Under the pieces are notes generated by a model. The model was given only the letters and a program-made list of their open reading frames with translations. It did no database searches and had not been told where the DNA came from. Shown here piece by piece: positions 2,963-7,771 of a DNA stretch of 58,954 bases. Numbering within the stretch: position 1 is the first letter of the stretch; each line of letters starts with the position of its first letter. Source of the stretch: a virus (lineage: Duplodnaviria > Caudoviricetes); IMG/VR virus record IMGVR_UViG_3300022413_000001, positions 1-58,954 of that record. One strand, written 5' to 3'. The position numbers and the translations under genes are program-made.

Positions 2963-3162
2963 GTACCAGGGATGAATTGACGATAAGTGTAAAGCTTAGA
3001 GTTGACGATACCAAAATGAGAGAATTTGCGCAGGTATTGGGAAAGATAAAATATTTTGCAGACAGGTGCGAGCCTGAGATTCAAAAGGGCATATTGGATG
3101 GATTGGAAAAAATAGCAGATATTGTTTTATCCTCATCATTTAGGACATTAGCTGAAAACTAG
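2959..3162 (+). CDS. Hypothetical protein
   Basis: AGGAGG RBS with a TTG start overlapping the previous stop. Confidence 0.45.
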   Translation: MSTRDELTISVKLRVDDTKMREFAQVLGKIKYFADRCEPEIQKGILDGLEKIADIVLSSSFRTLAEN

Positions 3163-3190
3163 CGGGGGAAGAGGGAAGTGAGGTCATGTA

Positions 3191-3769
3191 ATGCCTGAGA
3201 ATGCCTGGAAAAACCGCATCACAGAATTGCGCTCTATCAATGCGTCTGAATTAATGGGGCATGATGGGAATTGGCGTGTGCATCCTCAACATCAAGTCGA
3301 TGCGATGGCTGGTGTGCTTGGAGAAGTCGGCATTGTGGATGCCTTGCTGGTCTATGACAGTGAGCGCCAAGGCGGGCTGACAATCATTGATGGGCATCTG
3401 CGCCGAGACCTGAGAGCGGATGCGGAATGGCCATGTCTCATGACAAACCTTGATGATACGGAAGCGGATTATGTGCTCGCGACGTTTGATTGGCTGACAT
3501 ACCAGGCGCAGGCGGACCGGAAGGCGTTGGATGCCCTCTTGAGGGACATGGCGACGCAGGACGCGGCTGTACAGGCGCTCTTAGATAAGATGCAATCTCA
3601 GTTTTTATCTGAAATTAAGCTACCTGACGAAAACATACATGATGAAACCGTACAGAAATCAGAATCTTTGATTGAGATTCGATGCAGTCAGGCTACGTTT
3701 CAAAAGATCCACGCGACCTTGTCTGAATGGGATTTATTGTATGACGACTTCGAGATTGACATTTCGTGA
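3191..3769 (+). CDS. ParB/Srx N-terminal domain protein (typical partner of DNA-modification genes)
   Basis: NWRVHP and IIDGHLR motifs. Confidence 0.75.
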   Translation: MPENAWKNRITELRSINASELMGHDGNWRVHPQHQVDAMAGVLGEVGIVDALLVYDSERQGGLTIIDGHLRRDLRADAEWPCLMTNLDDTEADYVLATFDWLTYQAQADRKALDALLRDMATQDAAVQALLDKMQSQFLSEIKLPDENIHDETVQKSESLIEIRCSQATFQKIHATLSEWDLLYDDFEIDIS

Positions 3770-4514
3770 GCAGACAGAAATAAGCTGGCAGAAGATACTG
3801 CGGGATCAATTTAATGATGAAGGCGTGCCACCTGTTCCGCATCTTTCTCTGAAGAAGGCAGTTGTAAAAGCGGTCTCATATCGTTTTGCCAAACAAATTA
3901 TTCTAAAATACGAATGGCTAGGCACGATGGGACCATCAACTTATCATTACGGAATTTTCTTTGGGCCGTATTGTGCTGGTGTTTGTTGCTTTGCAATCGG
4001 CGGCGGGACGGGTGGTGCATATGTACATAAGCCATTTTTAATAGAATATGATGAATTGGCAATTTTGATAAGAGGGGCTTGTGTACATTGGGCACCCCCT
4101 GGATCAAACTCCAAGCTTGTATCATTGTCAACTAAAATGCTACTTAAGAGCACTAAAGCATTGTTAGTGTTGGCTTACTCTGATTCAGATGCTGGAGAGA
4201 TTGGAACTATATATCAGGCTTGCAACTGGGTCTATATTGGGAAAGGAGGATCAACAACGCAATATGTTTCAAGAAAAAACAGAGTTATGGATCAGAAGAT
4301 TGTCCATGATGTTTCAAAACAAAATAATGTATCAAGAAAGGAAGTGGAAGATGCATTATTGAAGTCAGGATGGAGAAAACAAAAAAGCAATCCAAAGGGA
4401 AGGTATGCCTTTACACTGAATGTAGATTTAAAGAATCGCCTTGAGCAGATGCGGAAGCCGTATCCGAAACGCCCCACAAGCATAGACAGCGATGCGTTAG
4501 CTATCCCAGGCTAA
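3741..4514 (+). CDS. Mom-like (GNAT-fold) DNA adenine modification enzyme
   Basis: AYSD..AGEIGTIYQACNWVYIG and C-terminal PYPKR motifs typical of Mom-family proteins; start probably ATG 3741. Confidence 0.8.
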   Translation: MTTSRLTFREQTEISWQKILRDQFNDEGVPPVPHLSLKKAVVKAVSYRFAKQIILKYEWLGTMGPSTYHYGIFFGPYCAGVCCFAIGGGTGGAYVHKPFLIEYDELAILIRGACVHWAPPGSNSKLVSLSTKMLLKSTKALLVLAYSDSDAGEIGTIYQACNWVYIGKGGSTTQYVSRKNRVMDQKIVHDVSKQNNVSRKEVEDALLKSGWRKQKSNPKGRYAFTLNVDLKNRLEQMRKPYPKRPTSIDSDALAIPG

Positions 4515-4544
4515 AGAGGGCAGTGCAACTCTGACCGTGGGGCT
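4471..4544 (+). ncRNA. tRNA-Gly-like cloverleaf overlapping the 3' end of the Mom-like gene
   Basis: Acceptor GCCCCAC/GTGGGGC plus U discriminator; D arm GCAT/ATGC; anticodon arm TTAGC/GCTAA with loop TATCCCAG; T-like arm with loop TGCAACT; no encoded CCA. Confidence 0.7.
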
Positions 4545-4635
4545 TGAGCCAAAACGGCTACAGAATATAGATATAGACGCATAGTTAGATAGCTATGCGT
4601 CTCCACAGATTCCATGTTGGTTAAGTGGTGAGTTT

Positions 4636-5052
4636 ATGGCAATCAACAGGCAGCGCTACACTGCTAAACAGGTCATACAGGCTTTAAAGGTCACACGTGG
4701 CATGGTCTATATGGCGGCGGAACGCTTGGGGTGTGATCCGAAAACAGTCTACAACTATATTGACCGATACCCCTCTGTCAAAGAAGCGCTGGACGATACG
4801 ACAGGGCGCTCACTCGACATGAGTGAGACGATGCTCATGCAGCAGATCATGAAGGGCAATATCGTTGCCATCAAATACCACTTGAGCACCAAGGGCAAGC
4901 ATCGGGGATATACGGCAGAAATCGAAGTGGGCGTTACGCACCGTATGGATGACGAGATCTCTCAAGCACGCGAAGCCCTGAGTGATATCCTCGCGGTAAC
5001 AGGAGAGCGACTCAAAAATGCCGGCCTTAATGGAGATGGCCAAGCTTACTGA
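4636..5052 (+). CDS. terS: Terminase small subunit
   Basis: N-terminal HTH (AAERLGCDPKTVYNY) and AIKYHL..KGK.RGY; lies directly upstream of TerL. Confidence 0.8.
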   Translation: MAINRQRYTAKQVIQALKVTRGMVYMAAERLGCDPKTVYNYIDRYPSVKEALDDTTGRSLDMSETMLMQQIMKGNIVAIKYHLSTKGKHRGYTAEIEVGVTHRMDDEISQAREALSDILAVTGERLKNAGLNGDGQAY

Positions 5053-6361
5053 TCTTTCAGCAGCGGAAGAATTCTCCATGCTGGACGAGAGGGAGCGAAA
5101 CCGCGTTCTGGATAAGATGCCCGATAAGCAGATCTATGCCCTGATGCATGACTGGGCGTTTTGGGCACGCCCGGAGCAGTTGTTGCCGGAGCATGATGAC
5201 TGGGATGTGATGTTCTGGTGCGCGGGCAGGGGGAGTGGGAAAACGAGACCAGCAGCGGAGACTGTTAACCAATGGGCTGAGAACAAAAATTGGCACCTCT
5301 CGCTTGTGGGAGAGACGGCAGCAGAAGTCAGAGATGTCATGATCGAGGGACCCAGTGGACTGATTGCGACAGCGAAGCCCTGGAACCCTGCTGTGTACGA
5401 ACCCTCGAAACGGCGTGTGACATGGCCTGCTACGGGGACTTGGGCAACCACATACAGCGGGGACAAGCCGGATCAGTTGCGTGGACCTAATTCGAATGGG
5501 TGCTGGGTCGACGAGTTGGCCAAATTTCGGTATCCGGAAAAAGTCTGGGAAAACCTGGAAATGCTTAACCGTGTTGGGCGCCACCCACGGTTTTTAATTT
5601 CCTCTACGCCTCGCCCGATCCCAATTATAAAAGAAAAAATTGAAGAGTCCTTAAAGCCCAATTCAACGACTATCGTTCGCACCTGGAATACCTACCGAAA
5701 CCTGGCAAACCTGGCTGAATCGACCATTCAGCGGTTGCTGAACCGGTACGAAGGAACCCGGATTGGGCGCCAGGAATTGCATGCGGAGCTGCTCAGTGAT
5801 ACGCCGGGGGCACTGTGGACACTGTCAGGGATTGACGAGCACCGGGTTACCCAGCATAATGCCTTGAAAATCATTGTCGTAGGTGTAGATCCTCCCATAA
5901 CTGAGGGGGGTGAATGCGGAATCATAGTGCAAGGACTGGCTCCAAACGACCACATTTACACACTGGACGATATGAGCATGAGTGGCAAGCCGCACGAATG
6001 GGGAGCCCAAGTCATTGCGGCTTATCACAAGTGGGGAGCCAATTATATCGCACCTGAGATCAATCAGGGCGGAGATATGGTGTCGTCAGTTTTGCATACA
6101 ATCGATCCCGGTGTACCGATCACTCCAGTTTGGGCGTCAAGAGGAAAGTGGTTACGGGCAGAGCCCATATCGAGTTTTCACGAAAAGGGCCGTATGCATC
6201 ATGTCGGCACTTTTGCTGCTCTCGAAGATGAGCAAAGCACCTACGTACCCGGCAATCCCAGCCCTAACAGATTGGATGCGTATGTTCATGCGGCAACTAA
6301 ATTACTCTCTTACACGGAATTTGACGCCGGCAGTACGAGAGCGGGTGTGTGGGGAGAATGA
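5018..6361 (+). CDS. terL: Terminase large subunit
   Basis: Walker A AGRGSGKT, Walker B WVDE, STP coupling motif, nuclease GVDP ... SPNRLDA. Confidence 0.95.
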   Translation: MPALMEMAKLTDLSAAEEFSMLDERERNRVLDKMPDKQIYALMHDWAFWARPEQLLPEHDDWDVMFWCAGRGSGKTRPAAETVNQWAENKNWHLSLVGETAAEVRDVMIEGPSGLIATAKPWNPAVYEPSKRRVTWPATGTWATTYSGDKPDQLRGPNSNGCWVDELAKFRYPEKVWENLEMLNRVGRHPRFLISSTPRPIPIIKEKIEESLKPNSTTIVRTWNTYRNLANLAESTIQRLLNRYEGTRIGRQELHAELLSDTPGALWTLSGIDEHRVTQHNALKIIVVGVDPPITEGGECGIIVQGLAPNDHIYTLDDMSMSGKPHEWGAQVIAAYHKWGANYIAPEINQGGDMVSSVLHTIDPGVPITPVWASRGKWLRAEPISSFHEKGRMHHVGTFAALEDEQSTYVPGNPSPNRLDAYVHAATKLLSYTEFDAGSTRAGVWGE

Positions 6362-6364
6362 CCG

Positions 6365-7771
6365 ATGAGCGAAGTTTCAAACGGGCATGATGTAGCGGAT
6401 GTCCTTCGGACAGCCCAATCGATTATCCAATCCCGTGCGGCGCTATCCGCGCACCTTGGAAAGGCATTTGGAGGGGTACGGGATTACTATGATATTTTGG
6501 GGTACAAACTCAACCTTCAACCCCTAGACTGGATTGCAAAATACGACCGTCAGGATATTGCGAGCCGCATCGTAAATGCCTACCCGGATGATACGTGGCG
6601 CATCTCCCCTTTGGTGTGGGAAAACCAGGATGAAATTGACACTGAATTTGAAGTGGCATGGACACGTCTGGTTGAAAGGCTGCGGATCTATCACTATTTC
6701 CACCGGTTGGACCGGTTGGCTGGGCTTGGCCGTTATGCCATTATGATTATGGGCGTTGCGGACGGGAAATCCCTTGCTGATCCCATTAACCGGACTGTAG
6801 CTCCTGCCTTGCAGTATCTGTCTTTGTACAGCGAAGAACACGCGGACATCCAGGCGATTGATGAAAATACGAATTCGCCCAGATTCGGACTCCCCCTTAC
6901 CTATAAGGTTGACTTATCAAGGTCGACAACAGTCGTGGGATCCACGCAATCTACCCGCGAGAATAAACAAAAAGACAACCAAATTGTGCATTTCGAACGA
7001 GTTATTCATTTTGCGGATGGTGTGCTGGAAGATGATGTCTATGGAACGCCCAGACTTCGGCCTGTTTACAACCTGTTGGATGACTTGCAAAAAGTGGTCG
7101 GTGGATCAGCCGAAGTATTTTGGCGCAACGCCTCACGGGATCTGATTGCAGCGGTGAGGGATGGGGCGCACCTAACGCCTGAAAGTTCGACTGCGATCAG
7201 CGAACATATTGATGAGTTTATCCACGGACTGCGCCGAGTGCTTCGGGTAGAGGGGGTAGACATCAATGCCTTGCCAGCAGAGATTGCGTCTCCACGGGAT
7301 ACGGTGGATGTAATCATGGATATGGTTTCAGGCACAACGGGCATTCCCAAACGCATCCTGCTGGGCTCAGAACGAGGAGAGTTGGCGAGTTCACAAGATG
7401 AGGGGAATTGGGTCTCCCGCATAGAGCAGCGGCAAATACAAGTCATCAACGATGTTATTCTGCGCAACTTTATTGATAGGATGATCTCAATCCGCATACT
7501 CCCAACCCCTCCCGATGGGTATACAATCGAATGGCCACCGCTAATAACTGAGGATCCCAAGGAGCGGACAGAGAGAATAGAACGCTTGGCGAACGCCTTG
7601 GCTACGATTGCAGGTCCAGGGCAGGTTTTGAGTGTATTCCCACTTCCTGAAGTGCGGGAAACGGTGCTGGAATGGGATGCAGAGAGTCCTTTTGAGACGG
7701 ACGAATCCCTCGCAGCCATCGAGGAAGAGGATGACGATGATTTCGAGGTGGACGACGATGTTGCTGAATAA
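6365..7771 (+). CDS. Portal protein (DUF1073-like)
   Basis: Follows TerL; ERVIHF, GIPKRILLGSE.G.LAS..D..NW motifs. Confidence 0.88.
   Translation: MSEVSNGHDVADVLRTAQSIIQSRAALSAHLGKAFGGVRDYYDILGYKLNLQPLDWIAKYDRQDIASRIVNAYPDDTWRISPLVWENQDEIDTEFEVAWTRLVERLRIYHYFHRLDRLAGLGRYAIMIMGVADGKSLADPINRTVAPALQYLSLYSEEHADIQAIDENTNSPRFGLPLTYKVDLSRSTTVVGSTQSTRENKQKDNQIVHFERVIHFADGVLEDDVYGTPRLRPVYNLLDDLQKVVGGSAEVFWRNASRDLIAAVRDGAHLTPESSTAISEHIDEFIHGLRRVLRVEGVDINALPAEIASPRDTVDVIMDMVSGTTGIPKRILLGSERGELASSQDEGNWVSRIEQRQIQVINDVILRNFIDRMISIRILPTPPDGYTIEWPPLITEDPKERTERIERLANALATIAGPGQVLSVFPLPEVRETVLEWDAESPFETDESLAAIEEEDDDDFEVDDDVAE

What the first reader, a model, noticed from the sequence alone, without database searches (positions are those of the whole stretch)
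4471..4544. tRNA-Gly mimic encoded in the 3' end of the Mom-like gene
Seen: a 74 nt cloverleaf overlaps the last codons and stop. It has G1-C72 and C2-G71 pairs, a U discriminator, TCC/CCC in the anticodon loop (both Gly anticodons), an 8 nt anticodon loop and a non-canonical T loop (TGCAACT). Established: U73 and C2-G71 are bacterial tRNA-Gly identity elements, and Mom-type modification has been reported to draw on glycyl-tRNA. Inference: the enzyme is co-encoded with a dedicated, translation-incompetent glycine-donor RNA, or a tRNA decoy that autoregulates the mRNA. Either would be a two-component RNA/protein DNA-modification system.
Basis: partly seen in the sequence, partly recalled or inferred. 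Interest (0 to 1): 0.82.

Follow-up and report, generated by a model that had tools for sequence, protein, structure and literature searches.

The report
tRNA-Gly-like RNA gene coupled to Mom
A small transfer-RNA-like gene sits on the tail of a phage DNA-modification gene (Mom), and the same pairing recurs in more than a hundred other phages, which suggests that these viruses bring their own glycine-carrier RNA for chemically disguising their DNA.

Summary
The cloverleaf at 4471-4544 (+) is real. It covers the last 14 codons and the stop of a Pfam Mom gene. ARAGORN and Rfam's tRNA model miss it. It belongs to a large conserved family.

- Every close Mom homologue in viral contigs (13 of 13 unique loci) has the same element at the same place.
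- A scan for its unusual T arm (5 bp with a bulged A) gave 119 viral stretches. Of these, 113 close with a perfect 7-bp acceptor stem and 104 have a Mom ORF beside them on the same strand.
- Mom lies either upstream, usually overlapping the element, or 8-35 nt downstream.
- Covariation is strong: 96% of cells pair, against 40-44% with slid partners.
- A model built without the window scores it 73 bits; the next best hit in the window is 12 bits.
- G1-C72, C2-G71, U73 and an NCC loop, the bacterial GlyRS determinants, are conserved. Anticodon-loop length is not.

Mu Mom is known to take glycine from Gly-tRNAGly. My best reading (about 0.6) is a phage-supplied glycine-donor tRNA dedicated to Mom. 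Charging and use were not tested.

No paper I could search reports the linkage. Cultured phages that carry it: Salinibacter B2_17, Arthrobacter TaeYoung, Microbacterium Appa, Pseudanabaena Pan3.

The parts
3741..4514 (+). Mom-family GNAT gene (257 aa from the ATG at 3741; the open frame also allows a TTG start at 3672). The Pfam domain ends at residue 243, which is nt 4469, directly before the RNA element.
   Evidence: PF25680 Mom, E 4.5e-24, 85.7 bits against a cut-off of 27.1. Weak direct match to the Mu Mom crystal chain 8bv8_A, E 0.0055. ORF table.
4471..4544 (+). tRNA-Gly-like RNA element, 73-nt body plus discriminator U. No CCA is encoded; TGA follows.
   Evidence: Cloverleaf minimum-energy fold. 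Leave-one-out covariance model: 73.0 bits, E 2.9e-15. Family covariation.
4471..4477 (+). Acceptor stem 5' strand. It pairs 7 of 7 with 4537-4543. G1-C72 and C2-G71 are present. The third pair is C3-G70 here, whereas most of the family has G3-C70.
   Evidence: Pairs 1 and 2 are invariant in 89 of 89 rows with letters. Pair 3 is GC 80, GU 6, CG 3.
4480..4495 (+). D arm: 4-bp stem (4480-4483 with 4492-4495) and an 8-nt loop without the usual GG.
   Evidence: D stem 95.4% paired, all 4 pairs with double changes. D-loop GG covaries with T-loop position 55.
4497..4514 (+). Anticodon-like arm: 5-bp stem and an 8-nt loop (4502-4509) carrying the conserved (N)CC-A. The Mom stop codon TAA (4512-4514) lies in its 3' strand.
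4519..4536 (+). T arm: 5-bp stem with a bulged A at 4534 between pairs 51-63 and 50-64, and a 7-nt loop TGCAACT with G at position 55.
   Evidence: The window's A52-U62 pair compensates for the family's G-C. The bulged A is kept in protein-first loci whose T stems covary: L009, L013 and L005.
4537..4544 (+). Acceptor stem 3' strand (4537-4543) and discriminator U73 (4544).
   Evidence: The discriminator is T in 89 of 93 aligned members.
4636..5052 (+). Context only: a small HTH protein in the position of a small terminase subunit, followed by the large terminase (5018-6361) and portal (6365-7771).
   Evidence: HTH families below their cut-offs. Terminase_6N/6C and Phage_portal_3.

Best explanation
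The element is a phage-encoded, structurally deviant tRNA-Gly, co-transcribed with the Mom-family gene it overlaps.

Proposed mechanism (all steps inferred):
1. The RNA is cut out of the transcript. RNase P would cut at 4471. 3' trimming and CCA addition would follow, because this copy encodes no CCA.
2. The host glycyl-tRNA synthetase charges it with glycine, through G1-C72, C2-G71, U73 and the two Cs of its NCC loop.
3. The Mom enzyme uses it as the activated-glycine donor to modify adenine N6 in double-stranded phage DNA before packaging.

Its odd features are the bulged A inside the first three T-stem pairs, the 8-nt anticodon loop, A8, the missing D-loop GG, and G55. I expect these to keep it away from EF-Tu and the ribosome. 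The phage would then have a private glycine-donor pool that does not compete with translation.

Shown here: the structure, its conservation, and its physical coupling to Mom genes. Inferred: expression, processing, charging, exclusion from translation, and use by Mom.
For: (1) Family and structure. All 13 unique close Mom homologues in viral contigs (L001-L017) carry the element exactly where the Mom domain ends. In an alignment of 93 full-length members, 96.2% of cells pair, against 40-44% with slid partners. 18 of 21 pairs show double changes, there are 509 compensatory cells, and 0 of 500 shuffles reach this. RNAalifold independently returns the cloverleaf with the bulged T stem. The D and anticodon stems were not used to select sequences, and they pair at 95% and 86-88%.

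(2) Coupling seen from the RNA side. The T-arm pattern gave 119 viral stretches. 113 close with a 7/7 acceptor stem and 104 have a Mom-HMM ORF within 1.5 kb on the same strand.

(3) Natural control in bacterial genomes. Of 120 pattern hits, 95 lack cloverleaf closure and 0 of those 95 have a Mom neighbour. 25 close, and 14 of those have one.

(4) Two gene orders. Mom is upstream in 86 loci and downstream in 33. 10 of 10 sampled downstream ORFs are PF25680 above the cut-off, and the gene starts 8-35 nt after the element in 5 of them.

(5) Not a peptide. Where the element is overlapped by the ORF it is read in all three frames, so conservation is at the RNA level.

(6) Glycine identity. G1-C72 and C2-G71 are invariant. 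The discriminator is U in 89 of 93. C35 is present in 90 of 93 and C36 in 84 of 93, while position 34 is free: U 61, A 18, C 13, G 1. Loop length varies: 7 nt in 46, 8 nt in 41, other in 6. This fits synthetase recognition better than decoding. The determinant set is from PMC10464925.

(7) Biochemical premise. Mu Mom transfers glycine from Gly-tRNAGly and rejects Gly-tRNAAla (PMC13219725).

(8) EF-Tu logic. EF-Tu affinity for the tRNA body is set by the first three T-stem pairs, and S. aureus cell-wall tRNAGly weakens exactly these (PMC7826273, passages). The bulged A lies between pairs 50-64 and 51-63.

(9) It is the only tRNA-like gene in the window. In Microbacterium phage Appa the tRNA-Gly next to the Mom-like gene is the only tRNA over the cut-off in the genome.

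(10) CCA is encoded in 86 of 132 members.

(11) T-loop position 55 (U or G) covaries with D-loop GG (38/5 against 3/47), as expected for a conserved tRNA elbow.
Against: - Nothing here shows expression, processing, charging or use by Mom.
- The RNA is not needed for Mom chemistry in general. Mu has no such element or tRNA, and Mu Mom works with all three host isoacceptors. Only 4 of 38 more distant Mom loci in viral contigs have the element (some of those loci lack downstream flank). Only 4 of 16 sampled cultured phage lineages with a Mom-like gene have one beside it.
- Verrucomicrobia phage P8625 has a good copy (67.7 bits) but no Mom anywhere in its 32.9-kb genome.
- The window's copy departs from the family: C3-G70, no encoded CCA, an 8-nt loop.
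- GlyRS is reported to need the arms and the L shape, so the 64-68-nt forms without a D arm may be poor substrates.
- The bulge is not universal. It is absent from TaeYoung, Appa, Pan3 and L033. Five of 16 members tested pass Rfam's tRNA threshold. So 'translation-incompetent' cannot hold for the whole family.
- In Mom-upstream loci the next gene is often a terminase subunit, so a packaging-linked role is not excluded.
- The Mom frame stays open through the element more often than the other frames do (63 of 73 against 66 of 146). That is an extra constraint at the level of translation, and the donor model does not explain it.
- The window Mom has D where Mu has the essential R151, in a weak pairwise alignment.
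Confidence: 0.6

Rival explanations
1. An ordinary phage tRNA-Gly that works in translation. It would top up the Gly-tRNA pool that Mom drains, or serve GGA/GGG codons, and it sits next to Mom only because that arrangement co-regulates the two.
For: Some members look nearly canonical. ARAGORN of 118 unique cores tRNA-Gly. Five of 16 tested pass Rfam RF00005. Appa's copy is a canonical tRNA-Gly(CCC) on the opposite strand. UCC is the commonest 'anticodon' (61 of 93), as in many phage tRNA-Gly genes (recalled).
Against: 47 of 93 have an anticodon loop that is not 7 nt, and 24 unique forms lack a D arm. ARAGORN fails on 92 of 118. In the bulged subfamily the A interrupts the first three T-stem pairs, which set EF-Tu affinity. 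Position 34 is A in 18 of 93 and G in only 1; that this is unlike bacterial decoding sets is recalled. The window's copy has an 8-nt loop, A8, no GG and G55, and is invisible to both tRNA finders.
Confidence: 0.15
2. A tRNA-shaped regulatory element or decoy. One version acts in cis on the Mom mRNA: RNase P cleavage would remove the stop codon and send the protein to tmRNA-mediated decay, or the structure would stabilise the 3' end. The other version acts in trans, as an uncharged mimic that binds and restrains Mom.
For: The element overlaps the coding end in 77 of 86 Mom-upstream loci. The Mom frame is kept open through it in 63 of 73, against 66 of 146 for the other frames, which hints at interplay with translation. 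Mom is tightly controlled in Mu: the Com translational regulator is annotated next to it. That Mom is toxic when overexpressed is recalled.
Against: In 33 loci the element lies upstream of Mom, with the gene starting 8-35 nt later in sampled cases. In Appa it is on the other strand. A role confined to the 3' end therefore cannot be general. Conservation of the full GlyRS determinant set, and of an encoded CCA in 86 of 132, is what a chargeable RNA needs and more than a cleavage or stability signal needs.
Confidence: 0.15
3. An element of the packaging module (for example part of a pac region or a terminase-linked RNA), or a relic of a tRNA-targeted integration site. Mom would be only a frequent neighbour.
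For: In the window, B2_17 and P8625 the element is directly upstream of the terminase genes. P8625 keeps it without any Mom. Of 10 first downstream ORFs in Mom-upstream loci, 1 is Terminase_4 and 1 is TerL.
Against: 120 of 132 elements have a Mom neighbour, including gene orders and genomic regions that are not next to terminase: Appa sits between ParB/SSB/DnaB genes and TaeYoung next to a sliding-clamp gene. A complete cloverleaf with compensatory changes in all four stems is not what an attP remnant looks like. No integrase was seen among the 10 large window ORFs scanned.
Confidence: 0.05
4. Not an RNA at all: a conserved C-terminal peptide of Mom (tails such as GG..PT.PL), or a chance fold.
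For: In many loci the ORF reads through the element, and same-frame relatives share tail motifs. For the window alone the fold energy is only z = -2.18.
Against: The same nucleotides are read in three different frames, lie after the stop in 9 loci, and lie upstream of the gene in 33. Compensatory base changes keep the pairing while changing the codons. The leave-one-out model gives 73 bits against 12 for the next best hit.
Confidence: 0.02

Closest known systems
Non-proteogenic tRNAGly isoacceptors (NP1-NP3) of Staphylococcus aureus, which feed FmhB/FemA/FemB (PMC7826273; abstract and passages read)
   Same: They are tRNAGly species set aside as glycine donors for a transferase outside translation; Mom and Fem enzymes are both placed in the GNAT superfamily in PMC13219725. 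[quoted passage not shown] They are partitioned away from EF-Tu through the first three T-stem pairs.
   Different: Those are cellular genes of one bacterial lineage, not linked to the enzyme gene, and they keep a normal cloverleaf. Here the RNA is virus-encoded and fused to or abutting its presumed partner gene. It uses a bulged nucleotide rather than weak pairs, often has a 6- or 8-nt 'anticodon' loop or no D arm, and the acceptor substrate would be DNA.
Phage Mu Mom with host Gly-tRNAGly (PMC13219725; PDB 8bv8)
   Same: Same enzyme family (PF25680). The equivalents of S124, D149 and Y159 are conserved in the window protein, and R111 is one alignment column away. The presumed chemistry is the same: glycyl transfer from tRNA to N6 of adenine.
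   Different: Mu carries no tRNA or tRNA-like gene and relies on any host isoacceptor. Mu regulates mom through Com. The window's clade has the RNA element instead, and D at the position of Mu R151.
Ordinary phage-encoded tRNA genes
   Same: A tRNA-derived gene in a phage genome. A few family members are annotated or detected as tRNA-Gly (B2_17 and Appa records; ARAGORN).
   Different: It is a single gene, always glycine-type, locked to one enzyme gene, overlapping its coding sequence, and mostly not recognised by tRNA finders.
Aminoacylatable tRNA-like structures at the 3' ends of plant RNA virus genomes (recalled; listing only)
   Same: A viral tRNA mimic placed at the 3' end of a protein-coding RNA, with synthetase identity elements.
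   Different: Those belong to RNA genomes, use pseudoknotted acceptor arms and act in replication or translation. This one is a true cloverleaf in a DNA phage, and in a third of loci it lies 5' of the gene.
tRNASec and the tmRNA tRNA-like domain (recalled)
   Same: tRNA-shaped aminoacyl carriers whose altered acceptor and T-arm geometry keeps them off EF-Tu.
   Different: Different amino acids, different partners (SelB, SmpB) and different architecture. No sequence relationship was tested.

Membership tests
Mom protein family (PF25680) - the gene 3741-4514 | Match to the family profile above its curated cut-off | tested here: met
   85.7 bits against 27.1, E 4.5e-24, profile positions 3-202 of 202.
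Mom protein family (PF25680) - the gene 3741-4514 | Residues shown to matter in Mu Mom: R111, S124, D149, R151, Y159 (PMC13219725, section 13) | tested here: inconclusive
   In the pairwise alignment to 8bv8_A (E 0.0055), S124 aligns to S, D149 to D, Y159 to Y, R111 to an R one column away, and R151 to D. The numbering offset (chain position + 9) is my inference from H58/Y59. The alignment is weak.
Canonical elongator tRNA (Rfam RF00005 / ARAGORN) | Detection by the curated model or by a tRNA finder | tested here: not met
   ARAGORN finds 0 tRNAs in the window. RF00005 gives no hit at E <= 10 locally and none at the gathering score. In the family, ARAGORN of 118 and RF00005 passes 5 of 16.
Canonical elongator tRNA (Rfam RF00005 / ARAGORN) | Cloverleaf with a 7-bp acceptor, 4-bp D, 5-bp anticodon and 5-bp T stem | tested here: met
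   But the T stem carries a bulged A at 4534.
Canonical elongator tRNA (Rfam RF00005 / ARAGORN) | 7-nt anticodon loop, U8, G18-G19, and T54-Psi55-C56 (this list is recalled) | tested here: not met
   The window has an 8-nt loop, A8, no GG in the D loop and G at position 55.
Eubacterial tRNAGly identity set (PMC10464925) | G1-C72, C2-G71, U73 | tested here: met
   Present in the window. In the family, pairs 1 and 2 are invariant and U73 is present in 89 of 93.
Eubacterial tRNAGly identity set (PMC10464925) | C35 and C36 in the anticodon loop | tested here: met
   The window loop has CCC followed by A. The aligned family columns are C in 90 of 93 and 84 of 93. In the window they sit in an 8-nt loop, so the geometry is uncertain.
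Eubacterial tRNAGly identity set (PMC10464925) | Actual glycylation by GlyRS | not testable with these tools
   Needs an aminoacylation assay.
Mom-linked tRNA-Gly-like family defined here (models R1 and R2) | Full-length match to a model built without the window | tested here: met
   73.0 bits, E 2.9e-15, model positions 1-73 of 73.
Mom-linked tRNA-Gly-like family defined here (models R1 and R2) | Mom-family gene directly adjacent | tested here: met
   Overlaps the last 44 nt of the Mom ORF. 120 of 132 family members have a Mom neighbour.
S. aureus-type non-proteogenic tRNAGly | Member of the staphylococcal NP lineage with weak 49-65, 50-64 and 51-63 pairs | tested here: not met
   Its T-stem pairs are G-C, G-C and C-G with a bulge, and it is in a phage. 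It may work like that lineage but is not a member.

The most novel reading that the evidence does not exclude
A widespread, previously unrecognised class of virus-encoded aminoacyl-carrier RNAs. These are slimmed or distorted tRNAGly derivatives: some have a bulged T stem, some lack a D arm, and many have an anticodon loop of the wrong size. They would be charged by the host GlyRS, hidden from EF-Tu and the ribosome, and serve a single enzyme, Mom, as a private glycine donor for DNA hypermodification. The RNA gene is written inside or against the enzyme's own reading frame, so translation of Mom and maturation of its cofactor RNA would be mechanically coupled. The result would be a self-contained two-part 'DNA glycylation cassette' that moves between phages as a unit.
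Probability: 0.4. Interest if true: 0.9.

Novelty: new variant of a known kind. Interest (0 to 1): 0.85.

Why it matters
Mom's use of charged tRNA to modify DNA was established only recently, and the authors describe it as scavenging a host resource. If many phages instead bring a dedicated carrier RNA, several things follow.

- **A second known case of a tRNAGly reserved for a non-ribosomal transferase**, after the staphylococcal cell-wall tRNAs. It would be the first encoded by a virus, and the first physically fused to its enzyme gene.
- **A natural series of minimal GlyRS substrates**, with and without a D arm, with 6-, 7- and 8-nt loops, and with and without the T-stem bulge. These could be used to dissect what GlyRS, EF-Tu and Mom each recognise.
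- **An annotation problem.** Gene callers extend Mom ORFs through the RNA or call spurious ORFs on it. P8625 gp04 is one example, and TaeYoung's copy is not annotated at all.
- **A caveat for heterologous tests.** ORF-based cloning of Mom homologues may or may not carry the RNA along, which could affect such tests.
- **Directly testable.** Four cultured phages on non-pathogenic hosts carry the pairing.

Tried and rejected
**Searches and tests that gave nothing usable**
- Rfam on 4300-4700 at E <= 10 gave only a chance sRNA hit (RF02856, E 2.5).
- blastn of window 3000-6500 against cultured phages found no match.
- tblastn of the window Mom against cultured phages found only relatives at or below 31% identity.
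- Expression: the look-up of sequencing runs listed four DNA runs (sediment and estuary metagenomes) and no RNA holder, so expression could not be examined.
- Read laying used contigs only. One run is identical over the element and shows no informative variants inside it.
- blastn of a near-canonical member (L090) against E. coli genomes gave only weak tRNA-Val hits (E 2). This says nothing about ancestry.
- A crude tblastn for TerL near the elements found 8 of 132. It is too insensitive to use.
- The promoter and terminator scan of 3000-5200 found nothing above the shuffle expectation near the element.
- A Mantel test of Mom divergence against element divergence gave r = 0.10 (0 of 500 permutations as high). 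It is too weak to argue co-evolution.
- My first cloverleaf script required an uninterrupted T stem, so it missed the window and most of the family. The bulge was recognised afterwards.

**Readings considered and rejected**: a C-terminal peptide motif, a chance fold, and an attP remnant (see the rival explanations).

- Complex prediction, structure prediction, the search for homologous proteins, the search of protein representatives and the metagenome scan were not used.
- Supplementary files of PMC13219725 could not be read. They may show genome neighbourhoods of the mined homologues, so they may bear on whether the linkage was noticed.

**Literature.** The claim that the linkage is not in print rests on six searches:
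- Mom + glycyl-tRNA + bacteriophage Mu: 3 papers.
- Mom / tRNA-like / DNA hypermodification.
- Mom-like + tRNA-Gly: 0 papers.
- momylation: 4 papers.
- Mom / phage-encoded tRNA / glycine / DNA modification.
- In-paper term searches.
Full report
**The observation.**
Positions 4471-4544 on the plus strand fold into a cloverleaf by minimum free energy (-27.1 kcal/mol). It has:
- a perfect 7-bp acceptor stem;
- a 4-bp D stem;
- a 5-bp anticodon-like stem with an 8-nt loop containing UCC and CCC;
- a 7-nt T loop, TGCAACT;
- a U discriminator.

The ORF 3741-4514 is a Mom-family GNAT (PF25680, 85.7 bits). Its Pfam domain ends at nt 4469. The last 14 codons and the TAA stop (4512-4514) are therefore written in the 5' half of the RNA element. 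Energy alone is unimpressive (z = -2.18). ARAGORN and Rfam's tRNA model do not see the element. The window has no other tRNA.

**Relatives, starting from the protein.**
A search of viral contigs with the Mom protein gave 55 loci at 31-56% identity.
- ARAGORN called a tRNA-Gly(UCC) directly after the Mom match in two identical loci, L014 and L016.
- Reading the 3' ends showed a shared motif: GGCGG, seven bases, then CCG-A-CC. Seven further bases follow it, and these pair perfectly with a heptamer 64-73 nt upstream. The heptamer differs from locus to locus.
- All 13 unique close homologues (L001-L017) have the element. Of the 38 more distant loci, only L033, L049, L050 and L053 do. Some of those 38 lack downstream flank.

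**Relatives, starting from the RNA.**
- 113 close with a 7/7 acceptor stem. Chance would give about 4% per hit.
- 104 have an ORF matching a local Mom HMM within 1.5 kb, always on the same strand.

The same pattern in bacterial and archaeal genomes acts as a control, because there most hits are chance matches.
- 95 of 120 do not close, and none of those 95 has a Mom neighbour.
- 25 close, and 14 of those do have one.

The hosts span many phyla. They include Anaerococcus, Clostridium, Faecalibacterium, Pseudolabrys, Chloroflexota, Acidobacteriota and Actinomycetota MAGs.

**Structure and covariation.**
The 127 elements reduce to 118 unique cores of 64-75 nt. The 72-nt form is the commonest, with 61 cores.
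- In an alignment of 93 full-length members including the window (A1), 96.2% of cells pair, against 40-44% when partners are slid. 18 of 21 pairs show double changes, and 0 of 500 shuffles reach the observed values.
- RNAalifold independently predicts the same cloverleaf with the bulged T stem.
- Two caveats apply. The T arm was fixed by the search pattern for 79 rows, and I required 7/7 acceptor pairing. The D and anticodon stems were not selected, and they pair at 95% and 86-88%, with every pair covarying.
- In protein-first loci the T stem itself covaries while the bulged A stays. This holds for L009, L013, L005 and the window, whose A-U pair replaces a G-C.
- A model built from 101 elements without the window (A2 and R2) scores the window element 73.0 bits with filters off. 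The runner-up scores 12.1 bits.
- In 751,894 nt of 100 loci, model R1 found one hit per locus plus one extra.

**Forms of the element.**
There are two main flavours.
- One has U8, GG in the D loop and U55. It is often called a tRNA by the finders and is mostly found upstream of Mom.
- The other has A8, no GG and G55. The finders do not see it, it is mostly found at the 3' end of Mom, and the window belongs to it.

D-loop GG and base 55 covary: 38 and 5 against 3 and 47. This is what a conserved D/T elbow would produce. Twenty-four unique cores are 64-68 nt and lack a D arm. Forms without the bulge exist: L033, TaeYoung, Appa and Pan3.

**Gene arrangement.**
Of 132 elements, 120 have a Mom neighbour.
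- In 86 loci Mom is upstream. The in-frame stop falls after the element in 66, inside it in 11 (the window among them) and before it in 9.
- In 33 loci Mom is downstream. Ten of 10 sampled downstream ORFs are PF25680 above the cut-off, and the gene starts 8-35 nt after the element in five of them.
- Where the ORF overlaps the element, it is read in all three frames. The conservation is therefore not that of a peptide.
- One point is unexplained. The Mom frame is stop-free through the element in 63 of 73 unique loci, against 66 of 146 for the other two frames.

**Why glycine, and why not decoding.**
- Pairs 1-72 and 2-71 are invariant G-C and C-G. Pair 3-70 is G-C in 80 of 89.
- The discriminator is U in 89 of 93.
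- The loop always carries NCC, usually followed by A. Position 34 is free: U 61, A 18, C 13, G 1.
- Loop length is 7 nt in only 46 of 93.
- G1-C72, C2-G71, U73, C35 and C36 are the determinants of eubacterial GlyRS (PMC10464925, passages read).
- CCA is encoded in 86 of 132, but not in the window.

**Link to function.**
Silva et al. (Nat Commun 2026, PMC13219725; abstract and sections 10, 13 and 14 read) show that Mu Mom moves glycine from Gly-tRNAGly to N6 of adenine in dsDNA. It accepts all three E. coli isoacceptors and rejects Gly-tRNAAla, and the glycyl-dA then rearranges. They describe this as use of a host resource. Their main text has no occurrence of 'tRNA-like', 'cloverleaf', 'phage-encoded tRNA', 'encoded tRNA', 'neighbor' or 'co-occur'. 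The 2023 preprint likewise has no occurrence of 'tRNA gene'.

For EF-Tu, Rietmeyer et al. (PMC7826273; passages read) state that affinity for the tRNA body is set almost wholly by the first three T-stem pairs, and that the S. aureus cell-wall tRNAGly species weaken them. The family's bulged A sits inside that segment. That it lowers EF-Tu binding is my inference.

**Cultured phages.**

| Phage | What was found |
|---|---|
| Salinibacter phage B2_17 | Same order as the window: ParB_N gene, Mom, element (annotated tRNA-Gly), HTH protein, next gene. Mom is split over two frames in the record. |
| Arthrobacter phage TaeYoung | Unannotated 54.8-bit copy overlapping the end of its 'acetyltransferase'. 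|
| Microbacterium phage Appa | Canonical tRNA-Gly(CCC) 33 nt after the Mom-like gene, on the opposite strand. It is the only tRNA over the cut-off in the genome. |
| Pseudanabaena phage Pan3 | Reduced copy overlapping the Mom-like gene's end. |
| Verrucomicrobia phage P8625 | A good copy inside a predicted 'hypothetical protein', but no Mom in the genome. |

Twelve other lineages had nothing adjacent: Mu, f2b1, SerPounce, P12002L, HGTV-1, CRP-902, Vibrio 501E54-1, Vibrio 1.187.O, Listeria LP-031, Listeria A511, Geobacillus PK3.6 and Enterococcus PMBT2.

**Conclusion.**
I give 0.6 to a dedicated glycine-donor role. The alternatives are a translational tRNA (0.15), a regulator or decoy (0.15), a packaging-linked element or relic (0.05), and a peptide or chance fold (0.02). 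Expression, charging and use by Mom remain to be shown. I found no report of the linkage in five literature searches and four in-paper term searches. The supplements of the key paper could not be read.

Noticed in passing
window 4575-4602: A strong hairpin of about 12 bp lies between the element and the HTH/terminase genes. The 96-nt region 4545-4640 folds with z = -3.63 and 0 of 200 shuffles as stable. No U tract follows, so it is not a classic terminator.
   Followed up: partly
window 4550 (runs X3): One contig of a diverged relative (33 differences in 166 nt) matches 4550-4715 and is unrelated upstream of 4550, which is 6 nt after the element's end. This hints that Mom plus element is a mosaic cassette. 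It is a single low-depth contig. The Mom gene also has lower G+C (36-44%) than its flanks (50-58%).
   Followed up: partly
Mom-upstream loci: The Mom reading frame stays open through the whole RNA element far more often (63 of 73) than the other two frames do (66 of 146), even though the frame used differs between lineages. No explanation so far.
   Followed up: partly
alignment A1, D loop and T loop: T-loop position 55 (U or G) covaries with the presence of GG in the D loop: 38 and 5 against 3 and 47. This suggests an alternative elbow contact in the G55 subfamily.
   Followed up: partly
L176 (Verrucomicrobia phage P8625, NC_029047) 1952-2024: A good family member (67.7 bits) lies inside the annotated 'hypothetical protein' gp04, between a ParB_N-type methyltransferase and gp05. 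The whole genome has no Mom match.
   Followed up: yes
L175 / OR896349.1 19156-19745: The Mom gene of Salinibacter phage B2_17 matches the Pfam profile in two pieces in different frames (profile positions 2-132 and 128-202). This is a frameshift in the record: a sequencing error, a pseudogene or recoding.
   Followed up: partly
L001 1807-1882: Rfam calls a tmRNA (RF00023, 49.3 bits against 47) on a 76-nt tRNA-like sequence ending in ACCA, about 1.2 kb upstream of the Mom gene. ARAGORN does not call it.
   Followed up: no
L175 1373-1894; L304 888-1421; Microbacterium phage records: A ParB_N / ParB-like gene sits directly upstream of the Mom-like gene in several phages. The window's ORF in that position (3191-3769) has no Pfam match.
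   Followed up: partly
L068 476-544: A second, weaker tRNA-like hit (37.3 bits) with a canonical-looking D arm lies 1.9 kb upstream of that locus's Mom-linked element.
   Followed up: no
L306 (Pseudanabaena phage Pan3) 3201-3265: A further tRNA (RF00005, 34.9 bits) lies about 1.2 kb downstream of the Mom-like gene, in addition to the reduced element that overlaps the gene's end.
   Followed up: no
L062, L112, L129: Three pattern hits with a different acceptor stem and a canonical D arm have no Mom neighbour. They look like another kind of tRNA that shares the T-arm string.
   Followed up: no
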